IMG/VR virus record: IMGVR_UViG_3300013126_004149
Coordinates: 6,369 to 70,368 of that record
Origin: a virus
Strand: one strand, 5' to 3'
Length of the DNA stretch: 64,000 nt
Shown: in pieces, positions 22,711 to 43,406 of the stretch
Position numbering within the stretch: position 1 is the stretch's first letter
Layout of the letters: every line of letters begins with the position of its first letter
Program-made: the position numbers and the translations under genes
Notes under the pieces: model-generated
The model's input: the letters and a program-made list of their open reading frames with translations, nothing else
Database searches by the model: none
What the model was told of the DNA's origin: nothing

Positions 22711-23063
22711 CTATAAATTGACTTTTATTATTTTATATGGATATTTCCTTTTAATATAAAAAGATTGTCTTTCTAAATAGTGTCTGTAAAGAGCGTTTCC
22801 TAAATCATCTTTTTTAAATATGTCTACTAAATCAAAAATATTTACTTTATCTTTATCTGAATGTAGACGAAGACCCCTCCCTATTGATTGAATTATAATT
22901 TGTTCAGATTTAAATGAGTCTGCAAAAATAACATTGAATATTGCTCGTATGCTCACTCCTGTACTTAGTGTACCTTACTCCCTGGGGCTCAGTAAGAGGC
23001 GACTAAAACTTTAGTCGCCCCTTCTTCCCTAATTTCTTTTCTTTTATCTACTATTCTAGCCAT
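22711..23063 (-). CDS. uvsW: UvsW-like helicase fragment 3 (motifs V-VI), interrupted by a 17-nt insert at 22975..22991
   Basis: ATG at 23063 gives MARIVDKRKEIREEGATKVLVASY then TGA. After 17 nt the frame resumes GTLSTGVSIRAIFNVIFA...QSIGRGLR, which restores the UvsW VASYG.LSTG motif. Confidence 0.85.
22975..22991 (-). other. Candidate translational-bypass coding gap in uvsW
   Basis: TAC|TGAGCCCCAGGGAGTAA|GGT. It is flanked by a 14-bp inverted repeat (22994..23023) and a CTTACT/AGTAAG stem. Confidence 0.65.
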
Positions 23064-23074
23064 TTTAATAGTTT

Positions 23075-23866
23075 TTATTTATTTTTTCTGATTTTATCAA
23101 TAAAATTATCATCAATATCATCATTTTCATCAATATCTGAAGCCATCTTCCACTCACCATTTGAAAGTAAAATTTTAAAGTCAGATCTAACATCTATTGT
23201 ATAATCTCCAAAATTAAGTATTGTATATTCAACTTCTTTTTTGGTTATTTCCATTTGTTTTTTAATCTCTTCTCTTTTTCTACCACTAACTTCACCATCA
23301 ATATAGTAAAATTCTTTATCTGGTATTTCGGCACTCAACTTATTAAATATTTTTTGCCCATTTTCAATTGTGTGGAATAAAAGTAGAGTGTTATTATCAC
23401 ATTTTTGAACTAACTTTTTTATAAACTCCAACCTCTTATCTGATTGGTGGATATACATCTTTTCAAAATCAAATGCTGCTTTACCATCACCACCCTTTCT
23501 TATTATTTTCAATCTTTCATGAAATTCAGAATCTTCGTGGTTCATTAAAACCACTTTTATCTCCATTGGAGTTATTATTCCCTTTTTCTTCAATTCATCA
23601 GCAGTAACCTCTGTTATTTTTGGACCTAAAACTGATTGTATTGTTAATATCTCACAAGTATCATCTGGTGGAGTTGTTCCACTTACGCCGAATCTAGAAT
23701 AGGCATGTCCAAATGTATTCTCTAAAATATTAATATATGTTTTAGCTTTGGCTTGGTGACAATTACTAACACATAATCCATCTGCAAAGTAATTATGATT
23801 ATCTTTTATTCTTAAATTATAGACATCTCCGTCATATTTTATTTTTTCAATTTTATTAATTTTCAT
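23075..23866 (-). CDS. uvsW: UvsW-like helicase fragment 2: split-intein C-half (35 aa), helicase motifs II-IV and an intein-like tail
   Basis: Begins MKINKIEKIKYDGDVYNLRIKDNHNYFADGLCVSN|CHQ (intein blocks F/G, +1 Cys), followed by RFGVSGT and FYYIDGEV. Confidence 0.9.
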   Translation of the reverse strand: MKINKIEKIKYDGDVYNLRIKDNHNYFADGLCVSNCHQAKAKTYINILENTFGHAYSRFGVSGTTPPDDTCEILTIQSVLGPKITEVTADELKKKGIITPMEIKVVLMNHEDSEFHERLKIIRKGGDGKAAFDFEKMYIHQSDKRLEFIKKLVQKCDNNTLLLFHTIENGQKIFNKLSAEIPDKEFYYIDGEVSGRKREEIKKQMEITKKEVEYTILNFGDYTIDVRSDFKILLSNGEWKMASDIDENDDIDDNFIDKIRKNK

Positions 23867-24691
23867 CTATTTGTATCTTTTTATTTTTCTGATAATATTT
23901 TCTTTATCTGGTTGTTCATCTAATTTATGAATATTATTTTCAAAGTTTTCTAATATCCATTTTTCAGTTATATACTCATATTTGAATCCATTTATCGAAC
24001 ACCATTCTTTGGCATATTTACTTTTTATTTTATTTTTTTCTAAATTTATTGAAGAATTTGGTTTTATTTCATATAATATTTTGTTTTCACAATCAATGAA
24101 ATCTACTATGTAATTATGATTTTTATTTTTGAATTTATATGGAATTACAATATCTTCATATTTTAAATTTAAATTGCAAATGTGAAAAAATGCTTCCCAT
24201 GATGATCTATATTTTATTATTTCCCCATTTATTGTTAGATAAGAAAATCCTTTATGCCAACTATTTGTTATATTTGGTTTGAATTCACCATTTTTAATTT
24301 TTTCTATCATTATTTGTGAGTTTTTATTACACATAGATTTAAATGATTCATCACTCATTCTATGACATGTGTTATTTTCTCCTCTTTGACGAATTGATAT
24401 ATGTTTTTTATAACATTCGTATGAACAATATTTTTTAAAACCGAAGTCTGTTCTATTATTATTTCTAATCCCTATAAATTCTCTTTTATTTGTACATCCG
24501 GATATTAGACATGTATCATCTATATTTTTAAGATATTTAACAACATTTGATATTGTGATATCAAAGTTGAATTTTATATCATTTTTATTCAAGAATGATA
24601 TTAATCTATCTTCTTTTTTACTTGAATTAAATATAGAAAACCTATTTTTATATATTAAATCGTATATATAATCTTTTTGACTTTGTTCCAT
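23867..24691 (-). mobile_element. Free-standing homing endonuclease (TnsA-like PD-(D/E)xK with N-terminal Cys/Zn motif) between the split-intein halves
   Basis: YRSSWE...YEDIVIPY...HNYIVDF...LYEIKP; its stop codon abuts the ATG of fragment 2. Confidence 0.75.
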
Positions 24692-41511: not shown

Positions 41512-42619
41512 ATATTTCCTTTATTATTTTATCAACCGTTATATCTATACCATCTCTATTTAAATCATCTTCCCAAATTATAATTAATTTTTTTAGTTTT
41601 GTTCTTAAAAAATCATTCTTAATTCTATCCTTTTCCCATATATCCTTTGCATTTAGACCACTTTCTAATGGAAATGGCATATCATCTGATTTATATTTTT
41701 TTGGATTAGCATGCCAAATATCTCCATTAAACTCTATCCCTATATTTAATTCTCTTATGAAAAAATCTATTAGATAATATTTTTTATTTTCCTTATCATA
41801 TGAGTACCACTCTTTATCCTTATAATAAATTCTATATGTTCCTTTATCTTGAATTCTAGATATCAATTCATCAAATAGTTTTATAGATAATTTTGAATAA
41901 CCACTATTGAATAGTCTTTTTTTGCAAAAATCATCATATATATTTTGACCGGCAAAATCGCCATGTTTTTCCATGAAATATTCAACAGTTGTTGTGTATT
42001 TTTGTCTATCGCAATAATCCATCCATTTTTTTAAACCCAATTCTTCTCCATGTCTATTTACTAAATTTTCAATAGTTACAGATCTTGATTTATTATATTC
42101 TTTAAATTCTTCTTTGGTCCAACCATATTTTTCTCTTTTATATTCAAATGTGTTTGTTAAAGCTTGTTTATCTCTATAAACTTTCCATTTTTTTGAACCT
42201 ATTTCACTTCCCCATTTTTTAATTAGATTTTCTTCAGTTATAGCATACTTGTTTTTCATCCATATTAAAGCAGTTTCATGATCTATACCAAATGCGTATT
42301 CTGTAATATAATTCATCTGATTAAAAACCCTAGATTTATTCTTTTCAGAATACTCTGGATATTTTTCGGTTAAACAATCTTCACAAACATTTAAATAATA
42401 ACACTTATCGACATTTTTAGAAGTTAAAAAAGATTTACCCTTTGGTTGAATTTCTTTTGATTTAAAAGTAAATGTAGAATCATAATAATATATTATATCA
42501 TTACAAATTCTACATTTTGGTTTATCTGAAAAATATTGATTAAATATTTCTCTATAACTATCTTTACTTTTATTTTTATTAAAATATTCTATAAATTCTT
42601 TATTAGTTTTCATATACAC
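41504..42619 (-). mobile_element. Free-standing Vsr-like (EDxHD-type) homing endonuclease between the polB intein halves
   Basis: IDFF...GIEFNGDIWHANP...WEKD...IIWE, with repeated K(W/H)GxExG helical modules. It overlaps the downstream fragment by 8 nt. Confidence 0.8.
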
Positions 42620-42661
42620 AGATACTTTTATTAGTATATATAAAAACTAAAACTGTCCCTT

Positions 42662-43406
42662 TTAAAAAACTGATAGTATTTTATCTGTTTTTAAAACTTC
42701 CGAAGGTTTAACTTCAATTTTAACACCATCTCTAAATACTATCATTGAATGATCATTAGTTACTATAACTTCTTTACCTGACTTTGTTTTTAATCTCCAT
42801 TTAGCTTTACTAACCTTATGTCTTATAATCCTTTTAACAGGTGCATAATATAAATTACCATCATCCGAATAGTTTAATATCCTATCAATAGTTAATACCG
42901 ATTCGTGTCCTTTAAGTGTTTCTCCTGCGGAACCATTTTTAATATTGTTATTATACCATTCTTCAATGGTTAATCTACCATTTTCGGTTTGTATAATTGA
43001 TCCTGAAAAACAAGAATCCGTATCAGCATAGATGCTCACAGGCTCAGTTTTATTAACTTGTGTTATGTTTTTGATGCACAAATTTTTATGTAATTCGTGA
43101 TCTAAGTGCCATTGGTTATACCAATAGTCCTCATTTACTTTATCCATTGTTTTAGTTAGGTCTCTTCCTTGGGCTGTTATTGTGCCGGCGACCCAATTAT
43201 TAAATAGAATAAAGTATGGTGTTGCAAATGCTCCATAAGAGCCGTTAAGAACGCGGTTTTTCCTCCCCCCATGATTACTCACAGGGGGAGTATCAAACCA
43301 GCTTCAAAGCTGTTTGGATGGCATTATAATAATCTGCCTCCTTTTTCAGCTCCGAAGCTTTTATTCTTAATGACTCTATCTCTTTTAATTTTTCATCCTT
43401 AGTCAT
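42662..43406 (-). CDS. polB: Family B DNA polymerase middle fragment (motifs B and C) plus Ser-initiated split-intein N-half, interrupted by a 46-nt insert at 43250..43295
   Basis: ATG 43406 gives MTKDEKLKEI...AIQTALKLV then TGA. The frame resumes (V)LNGSYGAF...TITAQGR...YADTD|SCFSGS...VTNDH. The track start at 43282 is an artefact of the insert. Confidence 0.9.
43250..43295 (-). other. Candidate programmed translational-bypass coding gap in polB
   Basis: GTT|TGATACTCCCCCTGTGAGTAATCATGGGGGGAGGAAAAACCGC-GTT|CTT: matched GTT codons, a stop directly after take-off, a 12-bp GUAA-tetraloop hairpin and GGAGG 9 nt before the landing codon. Confidence 0.8.

What the first reader, a model, noticed from the sequence alone, without database searches (positions are those of the whole stretch)
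22975..43295. The two inserts look like one family of recoding elements targeting replication genes that also carry split inteins
Seen: both inserts begin with TGA straight after a sense codon in a highly conserved motif, follow a coding-sequence hairpin, are not multiples of 3, and share TACT-(N0-3)-CCCC..G.GAGTAA and GGGAG (polB TACTCCCCCTGTGAGTAA; uvsW TACTGAGCCCCAGGGAGTAA). Both sit only 24-37 codons after the start of a separately initiated gene fragment. Both host genes are also fractured by a split intein with a homing endonuclease. Inference: this is a shared, possibly mobile, byp-like element or a coordinated post-transcriptional switch (for example sensitive to RF2 or ribosome load) controlling replisome assembly. 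It could be an undescribed system combining ribosome hopping with protein trans-splicing.
Basis: inference. Interest (0 to 1): 0.85.

Follow-up and report, generated by a model that had tools for sequence, protein, structure and literature searches.

The report
Two separate ribosome-hop gaps, one phage
This giant lake phage carries short untranslatable gaps inside its DNA polymerase and UvsW helicase genes that ribosomes most likely hop over, but each gap was left by a different selfish nuclease cassette, and they are not one shared element or a coordinated switch.

Summary
polB (minus strand) reads ...ALKLV, GTT (43298-43296), TGA. After 43 nt holding a 12-bp GC hairpin a second GTT (43252-43250) resumes LNGSYG. 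uvsW fragment 3 reads ...VLVASY, TAC (22994-22992), TGA. After 14 nt, TAA-GGT resumes GTLSTG.

Uninterrupted relatives read exactly the joined sequences. Relatives carry polB gaps of 36-48 nt at four positions in motif B, and uvsW gaps of 4-17 nt. Several are closed in all frames or hold in-frame stops.

Each gap type has a conserved, covarying stem-loop ending at the take-off codon, and unbroken alleles lack it. The best reading is T4 gene-60-like translational bypassing. This rests on comparison only, because no RNA or protein data exist.

The "one family / coordinated system" idea fails:
- The shared motif occurs in 0 of 109 other loci.
- The GC hairpin occurs once per genome.
- The two cassettes carry unrelated HNH endonucleases.
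- The polB gap, the uvsW hop and the inteins come and go independently.
- No release-factor or RtcB genes were found.

This scan had already noted both hop families on other genomes. In print I found bypass cassettes described only for topoisomerase genes.

The parts
43484..44584 (+). Free-standing HNH-type homing endonuclease gene, divergent from the polB fragment; the mobile partner of the polB gap
   Evidence: Pfam DUF7487. PHROG homing-endonuclease families. tblastn homologues in 17 of 29 gap-bearing related loci and 0 of 13 uninterrupted ones.
43296..43406 (-). First 37 codons of the polB C-terminal gene (MTKDEK...ALKLV), ending in take-off codon GTT 43298-43296
   Evidence: Uninterrupted relatives read MTKEEK...ALKLVLNGSYGAF in one frame.
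43300..43359 (-). 5' stem-loop (13-bp outer stem) ending 1 nt before the take-off codon
   Evidence: dG -28.3 kcal/mol, z -5.7, 0 of 200 shuffles as good. The same 66-nt windows in 9 uninterrupted alleles fold at -3.4 to -12.7.
43253..43295 (-). polB coding gap: TGA stop plus 40 nt, not translated
   Evidence: Frame 0 has TGA and then TAA. Removing the gap plus one GTT restores the motif-B sequence that uninterrupted relatives have.
43263..43290 (-). Take-off hairpin inside the gap (12 bp, C5/G6 core, starts 5 nt after GTT); its 3' arm GGGGGGAGG looks like a Shine-Dalgarno site
   Evidence: dG -22.6, z -5.2; -24.4, z -4.8. It is the only CCCC..GGGG hairpin in the 70-kb contig.
43250..43252 (-). 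Landing codon GTT, identical to the take-off codon; CTT AAC GGC (LNG) follows
42662..43249 (-). polB continues (LNGSYGAF...YADTDS) into the N-part of a split intein
   Evidence: Pfam DNA_pol_B and Intein_splicing.
41504..42619 (-). Free-standing nuclease gene between the polB intein halves
   Evidence: PHROG phrog_22677. It lies between the intein N and C hits. A homologue occurs in 1 related locus, L014.
40303..41511 (-). Intein C-part plus polB C-terminal extein
   Evidence: Pfam Intein_splicing and DNA_pol_B. 45 close related loci.
24709..25806 (-). uvsW fragment 1 (UvsW_N, DEAD/ResIII) plus intein N-part
23867..24691 (-). TnsA-like nuclease gene between the uvsW intein halves
   Evidence: Pfam Tn7_TnsA-like_N. 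PHROG endonuclease.
23075..23866 (-). Intein C-part plus uvsW middle part, ending in a cassette-derived C-terminal tail (VEYTILNFGDY...)
   Evidence: The tail is absent from 26 of 34 related loci, the unsplit ones.
22975..23243 (-). Endonuclease-less remnant of a homing-endonuclease cassette in uvsW: tail, stop, new start, 24-codon leader, hairpin and gap
   Evidence: a ~98% identical relative in run X4 has 34 nt (reading SDKVKVLVASF) in place of exactly these 269 nt. Relatives L053 and L092 carry a Mob-like HNH gene at this place.
22992..23063 (-). uvsW fragment 3 leader, MARIVDKRKEIREEGATKVLVASY, ending in take-off codon TAC 22994-22992
22994..23023 (-). 5' stem-loop (13 bp) whose last pair uses the first base of the take-off codon
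   Evidence: 27 distinct split alleles fold at -15.0 to -23.3 kcal/mol against -0.8 to -7.8 in 17 distinct unsplit alleles. The one pair left free by the search pattern is G-C 14, A-T 7, G-T 6, A-C 0.
22978..22991 (-). uvsW coding gap (TGA plus 11 nt)
   Evidence: Frame 0 stops at TGA, and the resuming frame is closed by TAA right before GGT.
22975..22977 (-). Landing triplet TAA (two of three bases match TAC); GGT ACA CTA (GTL) follows
   Evidence: All 14 gap types of the family end in NAY or TAN.
22711..22974 (-). uvsW fragment 3 after the gap (GTLSTGVSIR...QSIGRGLR...)
   Evidence: 63-91% identical to the C-terminal part in 34 related loci.

Best explanation
The window holds two independent remnants of homing-endonuclease invasions. 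Each left a short untranslatable gap that the ribosome most likely bypasses, as in phage T4 gene 60.

polB: an HNH endonuclease gene (43484-44584) sits just upstream of the polB C-terminal gene. The cassette brought a diverged copy of the first ~37 codons and a 46-nt gap. This is inferred from relatives (L030 against L029).

Proposed polB mechanism (inferred):
- The ribosome reaches GTT with TGA in the A site.
- The GC hairpin 5 nt downstream blocks progress, and the 13-bp 5' stem-loop re-forms behind the ribosome.
- Peptidyl-tRNA-Val lets go, the mRNA slides, and the tRNA re-pairs with the second GTT.
- This restores K-LVL-NGSYG.

uvsW: a Mob-like endonuclease cassette, its nuclease gene now lost here, split the gene and added a C-terminal tail and a 24-codon leader. 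It left a stop-led gap at its 3' edge. tRNA-Tyr would leave TAC at TGA and re-pair 17 nt on with TAA, driven by a 5' stem-loop that includes the first base of TAC.

By analogy with what Manning & Atkins report for MobA, the gaps probably exist because they break the endonuclease's own target site without changing the protein. The inteins in both genes are further, unrelated selfish elements that target conserved motifs.

Shown here: the anatomy, the comparative pattern, the covariation and the linkage to endonuclease genes. Inferred: the hop itself and its purpose.
For: polB gap:
- 13 related loci (9 distinct sequences) read the joined sequence ALKLVLNGSYGAF uninterrupted. 29 loci (20 distinct) carry gaps of 36-48 nt at four positions within about 10 codons.
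- In 15 of 21 distinct gaps, the window included, the codon at the boundary is duplicated as a same-box pair: CTT/CTG to CTA, GCT to GCA, GTT to GTT or GTA.
- In 8 of 21 a stop closes the resuming frame immediately before the landing codon, so no frameshift can join the frames.
- Near-identical L032 and L033 differ by one G inside the gap (42 against 41 nt). L017 and L028 have 46 against 48 nt.
- All 21 gaps fold into hairpins of -16.8 to -31.5 kcal/mol with different stem sequences.
- The class I/Ib 5' stem-loop has 13 pairs, 89% of cells paired and 7 pairs with changes on both sides. 0 of 500 shuffles reach this, and slid controls give 30-45% paired. It is missing in uninterrupted alleles.
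- Endonuclease linkage: 17 of 29 against 0 of 13 loci, p = 3.6e-4.
- L030 and L029 are 95% identical in the flanks. They differ by the endonuclease gene, a 136-nt segment at 84% identity and the 39-nt gap.
- Gap states are scattered on the polB tree, needing 12 changes where 4 is the minimum.

uvsW gap:
- 26 of 34 related loci read VLVAS(F/Y)GTLSTG unbroken.
- There are 14 gap types of 4, 6, 7, 9, 10 and 17 nt. All end in NAY or TAN, a triplet set with background frequency 0.24.
- TAGTAA and TGAGGCTAA are in frame but hold stops. TGAGTAG and the window's 17 nt are closed to any single frameshift.
- The stem-loop contrast and covariation are, and the cassette boundary lies exactly at TAA|GGT.

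Literature: Manning & Atkins (bioRxiv 10.1101/2022.08.31.505936; abstract and Discussion read) list the same elements for gene 60. These are matched codons with wobble, a stop or hungry A-site codon, a take-off stem-loop, a mini-SD, added N- and C-terminal tails, and loss of the nuclease with the bypass retained.
Against: - There is no RNA, ribosome or protein evidence. No RNA run was available to test the hop.
- polB class III (6 of 21 distinct gaps) has no synonymous landing codon (TAT to AAC x4, TAA, AGC) and no 5' stem-loop.
- In 15 of 21 polB gaps one sense codon stands between the take-off codon and the stop, and 2 of 21 have no early stop. This is unlike gene 60.
- In the window a +1 shift at GTT-TGA would give an open frame with a 15-residue insert, so the window alone does not exclude frameshifting.
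- The window's SD-like GGAGG lies about 10 nt before the landing codon. In 15 of 21 gaps this distance is 4-8 nt.
- The 17-nt uvsW gap is the only one of its kind among 24 take-off/gap/resume combinations. Its own small hairpin is not better than shuffles (z +0.49). Its landing triplet is a stop codon with a wobble mismatch, so this copy could be decaying.
- My uvsW searches fixed most of the hairpin sequence, so they cannot see alleles that lack it.
Confidence: 0.68

Rival explanations
1. One reading: the two inserts are copies of one mobile, byp-like recoding element, or one coordinated switch (for example sensing RF2) that controls replisome assembly together with the split inteins.
For: - Both gaps start with TGA, follow a hairpin and lie early in a fragment.
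- They share TACT..CCCC..G.GAGTAA in this window.
- The 10 extra bases of the window's uvsW gap, compared with the common 7-nt form, create that likeness.
Against: - The motif is in 0 of 109 other loci.
- The C5..G5 hairpin is single-copy or absent in five related records of 191-483 kb.
- The two endonucleases are unrelated (best BLASTP E 0.047 over 41 residues).
- The two gaps show no co-occurrence (Fisher p = 0.31-0.42).
- The inteins are independent of the gaps.
- Stop-codon identity varies.
- No RF-1-domain gene was found in 5 records.
Confidence: 0.05
2. The gaps are removed from the mRNA (a mini-intron or nuclease-plus-ligase processing), not skipped by the ribosome.
For: - Class III polB gaps lack matched codons.
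- In L030 the predicted fold closes the whole 39-nt gap into one hairpin, which would bring the two exon ends together.
- No RNA data exclude this.
Against: - Gaps of 4-48 nt are far below any self-splicing intron.
- No Rfam family reaches its gathering score anywhere in the window, and only two weak snoRNA-model matches (E 0.16-0.32) lie around the polB gap.
- RtcB was found in 0 of 5 records. RNA_ligase was found only in G002, whose polB is uninterrupted.
- Duplicated boundary codons, A-site stops and SD-like runs before the landing codon have no role in splicing.
- A 4-nt or 6-nt intron has no precedent that I know of (recalled).
Confidence: 0.1
3. The gaps are read through by +1 frameshifting or stop-codon readthrough, so the proteins carry short inserts.
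For: - The window's polB gap is open in the +1 frame (ORF listing shows MSNHGGRKNRVLNGSYG).
- uvsW gaps of 4, 7 and 10 nt are mostly open in the +1 frame.
Against: - 8 of 21 polB gaps are closed right up to the landing codon.
- L023, L030, L031 and L028 have gaps that are multiples of three with in-frame stops.
- The uvsW forms TAGTAA, TGAGGCTAA, TGAGTAG and the window's 17 nt cannot be joined by one frameshift.
- A 12-16-residue insert in K-xxx-N-S-x-Y-G is unlikely to be tolerated (established knowledge of family B polymerases, recalled).
- Neither GTT nor TAC offers a +1 re-pairing codon.
Confidence: 0.06
4. One or both genes are simply broken here. The uvsW tail piece in particular may no longer be made, and the 17-nt gap is decay of a former 7-nt hop site after the endonuclease was lost.
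For: - The 17-nt form is unique: 1 of 24 combinations.
- The cassette has lost its nuclease gene.
- A close relative with an unsplit uvsW co-exists in another sample (X4).
Against: - The downstream 87 codons are intact and 63-91% identical to relatives.
- The stem-loop is perfect, and the landing triplet keeps the family rule (TAN directly before GG) despite the 10 added bases.
- The same sequence stands in three assemblies.
- For polB, this is the only match to the DNA_pol_B family in the contig.
Confidence: 0.1

Closest known systems
Phage T4 gene 39 / mobA / gene 60 element with its 50-nt translational bypass, and its homologues (Manning & Atkins, bioRxiv 10.1101/2022.08.31.505936; abstract and Discussion read)
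   Same: - A homing-endonuclease cassette splits an essential DNA-metabolism gene and adds tails.
- It leaves a stop-led gap a few dozen codons into the downstream piece.
- The gap has matched take-off and landing codons, a stem-loop and an SD-like element before the landing site.
- The nuclease gene is often lost while the gap stays.
   Different: - The host genes are polB and uvsW, not the topoisomerase. That paper states the cassettes are exclusively in Topo2L.
- The endonucleases are different.
- The polB hairpin is a 10-16-bp GC stem starting 5 nt after the take-off codon, and a sense codon often precedes the stop.
- The 5' stem-loop is conserved and covaries here, whereas the paper finds it not conserved for gene 60.
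- uvsW gaps are only 4-17 nt, with near-cognate rather than cognate landing.
- Sequence homology to the gene 60 cassette was not tested here.
Short stop-hops in E. coli reporter genes (Weiss, Dunn, Atkins, Gesteland 1987; recalled, not read here)
   Same: Peptidyl-tRNA leaves a codon next to a stop and re-pairs a few bases downstream. This is like the uvsW 4-17-nt gaps.
   Different: Those were low-level events in engineered sequences. Here the site is natural, conserved in dozens of phage alleles, and backed by a dedicated stem-loop.
Mitochondrial byps of Magnusiomyces capitatus (Lang et al. 2014; recalled; mentioned as ref. 13 in the Manning & Atkins text I read)
   Same: Short hairpin-bearing inserts in coding regions of an AT-rich genome, skipped by ribosomes, with tolerance for imperfect codon matches.
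   Different: Byps are many copies per genome in many genes. Here there is one GC hairpin per genome, and only in polB.
Fractured genes: split inteins flanking a free-standing homing endonuclease (Dassa et al. 2009, PMC2677866; title and start of abstract seen in the search listing only)
   Same: The polB and uvsW intein arrangements in this window have that layout: intein N-part, stop, nuclease gene, intein C-part.
   Different: This explains the inteins only. They are independent of the hop gaps.
MobE-split nrdA of phage Aeh1 with added tails (as described in the Manning & Atkins Discussion)
   Same: A Mob-type HNH cassette splits a gene and supplies C- and N-terminal tails that help the pieces work together. 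This matches the uvsW cassette's VEYTILNFGDY... tail and MARIVDKRKEIREEG leader.
   Different: No bypass is described there.
prfB (RF2) programmed +1 frameshift (recalled)
   Same: A UGA stop in the A site with recoding at that point.
   Different: There is no slippery P-site codon and no SD 3 nt upstream. Several family members cannot be decoded by +1.

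Membership tests
Gene-60-type translational bypass cassette | Take-off and landing codons readable by the same tRNA | tested here: met
   polB in the window: GTT and GTT. 15 of 21 distinct polB gaps have same-box pairs. uvsW in the window is only near-cognate (TAC to TAA). The uvsW family always lands on NAY or TAN.
Gene-60-type translational bypass cassette | Stop or slowly decoded codon in the A site at take-off | tested here: met
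   TGA directly follows at both window sites. Among polB relatives only 4 of 21 have the stop directly after the take-off codon, 15 of 21 have it one codon later and 2 of 21 have none early.
Gene-60-type translational bypass cassette | Take-off stem-loop at the start of the gap | tested here: inconclusive
   polB: met. A 12-bp hairpin starts 5 nt after GTT (z about -5). uvsW: not met. The 17-nt gap's fold is no better than shuffles (z +0.49).
Gene-60-type translational bypass cassette | SD-like element 5-6 nt before the landing codon | tested here: inconclusive
   The G-run of the hairpin's 3' arm ends 4-8 nt before the landing codon in 15 of 21 polB gaps and 10 nt before it in the window. In uvsW, GGGAG abuts the landing triplet.
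Gene-60-type translational bypass cassette | Part of a homing-endonuclease element that splits the gene and adds tails | tested here: met
   polB. uvsW.
Gene-60-type translational bypass cassette | Inserted in the topoisomerase large-subunit gene with a MobA homologue (homology to the T4 element) | tested here: not met
   The host genes are polB and uvsW. So the sites work like gene 60 but are not members of that element family.
Gene-60-type translational bypass cassette | Nascent-peptide signal and demonstrated bypass product | not testable with these tools
   No RNA or protein data. Only DNA runs were listed.
Byp-like multi-copy mobile recoding element | Many copies in several genes of one genome | tested here: not met
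   One CCCC..GGGG hairpin in the 70-kb contig. The pattern C5-N8-26-G5 occurs once in G001 and once in G004, both in polB, and 0 times in G002, G003 and G005.
Fractured gene (split intein plus free-standing endonuclease) | Intein N-part at the end of one ORF, a nuclease ORF, and an intein C-part at the start of the next ORF | tested here: met
   Pfam Intein_splicing/Hint hits on 24709-25806, 23075-23866, 42662-43282 and 40303-41511, with nuclease ORFs between them. Splicing activity was not tested.
prfB-type +1 programmed frameshift | The downstream frame is reached by a single +1 shift at the stop | tested here: not met
   The window's uvsW gap needs +2/-1, and that frame is closed by TAA. 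TAGTAA, TGAGGCTAA and TGAGTAG also fail. 8 of 21 polB gaps are closed up to the landing codon.

The most novel reading that the evidence does not exclude
Two unrelated endonuclease cassettes in one phage have arrived at the same solution: a stem-loop whose 3' arm ends at the take-off codon, next to a stop. This stem-loop is conserved and covaries in both families, unlike the 5' stem-loop of gene 60.

It could therefore be a general, portable driver of forward ribosome hops of 4 to about 48 nt. That would mean ordinary bacterial ribosomes can be programmed to hop by a simple mRNA module, and that selfish nucleases routinely use it to invade catalytic motifs. As a by-product, hop efficiency would set the dosage of polymerase and helicase pieces.
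Probability: 0.35. Interest if true: 0.85.

Novelty: new variant of a known kind. Interest (0 to 1): 0.68.

Why it matters
**Why a hop would be new**
- Programmed translational bypassing has rested for decades on one bacterial-virus example, T4 gene 60.
- The one broad survey I could read says its cassette is found only in topoisomerase genes.
- Natural hop sites in a DNA polymerase motif and in a helicase motif would be independent test cases, with dozens of varied alleles, gaps from 4 to 48 nt, and a covarying upstream stem-loop.
- They would let the field ask which mRNA features are truly needed for take-off, sliding and landing.

**Practical consequences**
- Gene callers will report these essential genes as broken or frameshifted.
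- Endonuclease cassettes can hide inside catalytic motifs without introns or inteins.

**What this finding adds**
- For the claim under review the result is sobering: the co-residence of two hops and two inteins is a pile-up of separate selfish elements, not a new combined system.

Tried and rejected
**Tried without result**
- Close phage relatives by megablast. The polB region gave only a 196-nt match in two Klebsiella phage records, and the uvsW region gave none.
- RNA evidence. No RNA holder was listed for window 40300-44600, so splicing against hopping could not be tested. I used the single read-laying run on 22000-26000.
- Rfam. 0 families reach their gathering score in the window. Two weak chance-level matches lie near the polB gap.
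- tRNA scan. 0 genes in the window, so there is no suppressor tRNA here.
- Terminator reading of the polB hairpin. 0 terminator-like sites in 42900-43700.
- Phage-encoded factors.
  - RF-1 domain: 0 of 5 records.
  - RtcB: 0 of 5.
  - RNA_ligase: only G002, whose polB is uninterrupted.
  - IF3: G002 and G006 only, next to the polB fragment, and not tied to the gap.

**Considered and rejected**
- An alternative genetic code. Long ORFs are open under table 11, and reading TGA as sense in polB runs into TAA six codons later.
- Separate initiation after the polB gap. There is no in-frame start between the closing stop and the landing codon in 8 of 21 gaps. The window's only candidate, a GTG, lies in the hairpin loop.
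- A bulge-helix-bulge intron. I rejected this by eye only, seeing no exon-exon pairing; it was not computed.

**Limits**
- Supplements of Manning & Atkins were closed. Their tables could list cases outside topoisomerase genes that the text I read does not mention.
- The statement that polB and uvsW bypass is not in print rests on two full-text searches and on that paper's text.
- Rows left out:
  - Tree: identical proteins were collapsed, and L037 (partial), L047 (distant) and L048-L052 (too distant) were dropped. That left 30 rows.
  - polB gap table: L006, L027 and L037 (truncated loci) and L047-L052 (distant, unsplit polB) are not counted.

Full report
**What the window is**

The window is 64 kb of a 70-kb IMG/VR virus contig. 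CheckV rates it 19% complete, and its GC content is about 27%. Relatives are freshwater phage contigs of up to 483 kb. Long ORFs are open under table 11. There are no tRNA genes and no Rfam families.

**Checking the observation**

On the minus strand a polB gene piece starts at ATG 43406. It reads MTKDEK...ALKLV and stops at GTT-TGA (43298-43293). Then come 43 nt, followed by a second GTT (43252-43250) and CTT AAC GGC..., which reads LNGSYGAF.

The uvsW fragment 3 starts at ATG 23063. It reads MARIVDKRKEIREEGATKVLVASY and stops at TAC-TGA (22994-22989). After 14 nt, TAA (22977-22975) is followed by GGT ACA CTA..., which reads GTLSTGVSIR.

Both genes also carry Pfam-supported split inteins around nuclease genes. 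The 17-nt uvsW gap stands unchanged in contigs of three runs that may be the window's source.

**polB in relatives**

A search with the polB C-terminal extein found 51 loci, 45 of them close. In all close ones the gene piece starts at the same methionine. The exonuclease half lies about 100 kb away in two near-complete records. The split itself is therefore a family trait.

- 13 loci (9 distinct sequences) read ...ALKLVLNGSYGAF without interruption.
- 29 loci (20 distinct) have gaps of 36-48 nt.
- The gaps sit at four positions: after Leu34 (class I, 11 distinct), after Ala33 (Ib, 2), after Val37 (II: the window and L031), and after Tyr42 (III, 6).

*Evidence that the gaps are not translated*

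- 8 of 21 distinct gaps have a stop in the resuming frame directly before the landing codon.
- Four gaps are multiples of three with in-frame stops.
- Near-identical L032 and L033 differ by one G inside the gap.

*Evidence for re-pairing*

In classes I, Ib and II (15 of 21) the boundary codon is present twice, as a pair readable by one tRNA.

*Structure*

- Every gap folds into a strong hairpin with its own stem sequence (-16.8 to -31.5 kcal/mol).
- The predicted stem starts 5-6 nt after the take-off codon in 15 of 21. It starts at 0-1 nt in the other 6, where extra outer pairs are predicted.
- The G-rich 3' arm ends 4-8 nt before the landing codon in 15 of 21.

**An upstream stem-loop**

Classes I and Ib have a 13-bp stem built from the codons for A-S-E-L-K and L-Q-L-A-L. 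It ends at the first base of the take-off codon.

- On 12 distinct sequences, 89% of cells pair and 7 of 13 pairs show changes on both sides.
- 0 of 500 shuffles reach this, and slid controls give 30-45% paired.
- The same positions pair at 3-10 of 13 in the 9 uninterrupted alleles.

The window and L031 (class II) have their own stem-loop, shifted so that it again ends at the take-off codon. The window's folds at -28.3 kcal/mol with z -5.7. Class III has none.

**Link to a homing endonuclease**

- The gene at 43484-44584 (DUF7487; PHROG homing-endonuclease families) has tblastn homologues, intact or in pieces, in 17 of 29 gap-bearing loci. It has none in the 13 uninterrupted loci (p = 3.6e-4).
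- L030 and L029 are 95% identical in the flanks. They differ by the nuclease gene, a 136-nt stretch of the polB leader at 84% identity, and the 39-nt gap.
- On a polB tree of 30 distinct rows the gap states are scattered. They need 12 changes where 4 is the minimum, and "no gap" is forced to at least 6 changes by well-supported branches.

The gap is thus part of a mobile cassette that is gained and lost.

**uvsW in relatives**

Of 34 loci, 26 read ...VLVAS(F/Y)GTLSTG... unbroken. The other 8 share the window's cassette, with its VEYTILNFGDY... tail, stop, new start and leader.

- In run X4 a ~98% identical phage has 34 nt in place of window 22975-23243. The cassette's right edge is therefore exactly TAA|GGT.
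- L053 and L092 carry a ~316-319-residue HNH gene in the cassette. It matches PHROG HNH and homing-endonuclease families, and its tblastn hits are annotated MobD/MobE-like.
- That gene is not related to the polB nuclease.

Pattern searches in IMG/VR and in metagenome contigs gave 24 take-off/gap/resume combinations in 14 gap types, of 4, 6, 7, 9, 10 and 17 nt.

- Every gap type ends in NAY or TAN, one mismatch at most from the Tyr codon. That triplet set has a background frequency of 0.24.
- TAGTAA and TGAGGCTAA are in frame with stops. TGAGTAG has a stop in the +1 frame. The window's 17 nt needs a frame that TAA closes.
- A hop of tRNA-Tyr is therefore the one reading that fits all of them.

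The 13-bp stem-loop before the site is cassette-specific. It folds at a mean of -19.2 kcal/mol in 27 distinct split alleles, against -3.3 in 17 unsplit alleles. The one pair not fixed by my search pattern is G-C 14, A-T 7, G-T 6, A-C 0.

**Is it one family or one system?**

- The quoted motif is absent from all 109 other loci.
- The GC hairpin occurs once per genome or not at all.
- The two nucleases are unrelated.
- Of 18 other contigs with both loci, 1 has both gaps, 14 only polB, 1 only uvsW and 2 neither.
- The uvsW intein is in 5 related loci, none of which has the hop cassette. The polB intein is in 4 of 45 loci.
- Stop identity varies.
- No RF-1 or RtcB genes were found in 5 records. 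RNA_ligase and IF3 do not track the gaps.

What the two sites share is a grammar, not ancestry.

**Comparison with what is known**

Manning & Atkins (bioRxiv 2022; abstract and Discussion read) describe gene-60 homologues as exclusively in the topoisomerase gene. Their list of elements matches what is seen here:

- matched codons with wobble;
- a stop or hungry A-site codon;
- a take-off stem-loop;
- a mini-SD 5-6 nt before landing;
- added tails;
- loss of the nuclease with the bypass retained.

They find the 5' stem-loop not conserved. The text I read has no mention of polymerase or helicase. Two full-text searches found no paper on polB or uvsW bypass.

The intein layout matches "fractured genes" (PMC2677866; listing only).

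This scan's earlier notes report both hop families on other genomes. My tests here agree with them.

**Weak points**

- No RNA or protein evidence exists.
- Class III polB gaps break the matched-codon rule and lack the 5' stem-loop.
- Many polB gaps have a sense codon before the stop.
- The window's polB gap alone could be read by a +1 shift.
- The window's 17-nt uvsW gap is unique and could be decay.

**Verdict**

Its interpretation is partly supported: these are hops, and they are mobile, but they are not one element, not a coordinated switch and not tied to the inteins. As biology, the two hop families are a notable new variant of a known kind.

Noticed in passing
L015:5053-5571, L026:4635-5168, L028:5125-5556; G002:C1:317243-317494: A phage-encoded translation initiation factor IF3 homologue lies directly upstream of the polB C-terminal gene in some relatives. 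These include G002, whose polB has no gap. It is absent from the window contig, G001 and G003, so it is not tied to the gaps.
   Followed up: partly
G001:C1:172482-172766 and G002:C1:204250-204768 (L108, L109): The polB exonuclease half is a separate ORF of about 512-515 residues, roughly 100 kb from the C-terminal gene. The polymerase is therefore a two-gene enzyme across this phage family, independent of the gaps and inteins.
   Followed up: partly
L015, L017, L023, L026, L028, L030 (polB class III gaps): Gaps after Tyr42 have no synonymous landing codon and no 5' stem-loop. The five bases before the C-run recur just before the resuming GGA and change together: TTAAC with TTAAC in L023 and L026, and TTAGC with TTAGC in L030. 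This is unexplained.
   Followed up: partly
L036 and L015 (polB gaps): Two gaps have no stop within the first two codons after the take-off codon (CTT TTT TGG... and TAT TTT TTA...). A stop is therefore not a universal part of the signal.
   Followed up: no
window 25979 (ORF 25915-26235, + strand): Run X2's otherwise identical contig has 27 extra bases here, one more unit of a repeat in a Lys/Glu/Val-rich small protein gene.
   Followed up: no
window 23078-23243 (minus strand): The cassette-derived tail of uvsW fragment 2 (VEYTILNFGDYTIDVRSDFKILLSNGEWKMASDI...) resembles the distal N-part of the uvsW intein by eye but lacks a first Cys. It may help fragments 2 and 3 hold together. Another first-reader note on this window makes the same point.
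   Followed up: no
window 43013-43016 and 41374-41376 (minus strand): Uninterrupted relatives have a single Ser in YADTD-S-LFV, while the window has one Ser on each side of the intein. The polB intein therefore probably starts with Ser rather than Cys.
   Followed up: no
G001 (483 kb) and G004 (242 kb): Two records of very different length carry identical polB gap regions (L020, L022 and L024 are identical). One record may be a concatemer or mis-assembly, or the other a fragment.
   Followed up: no
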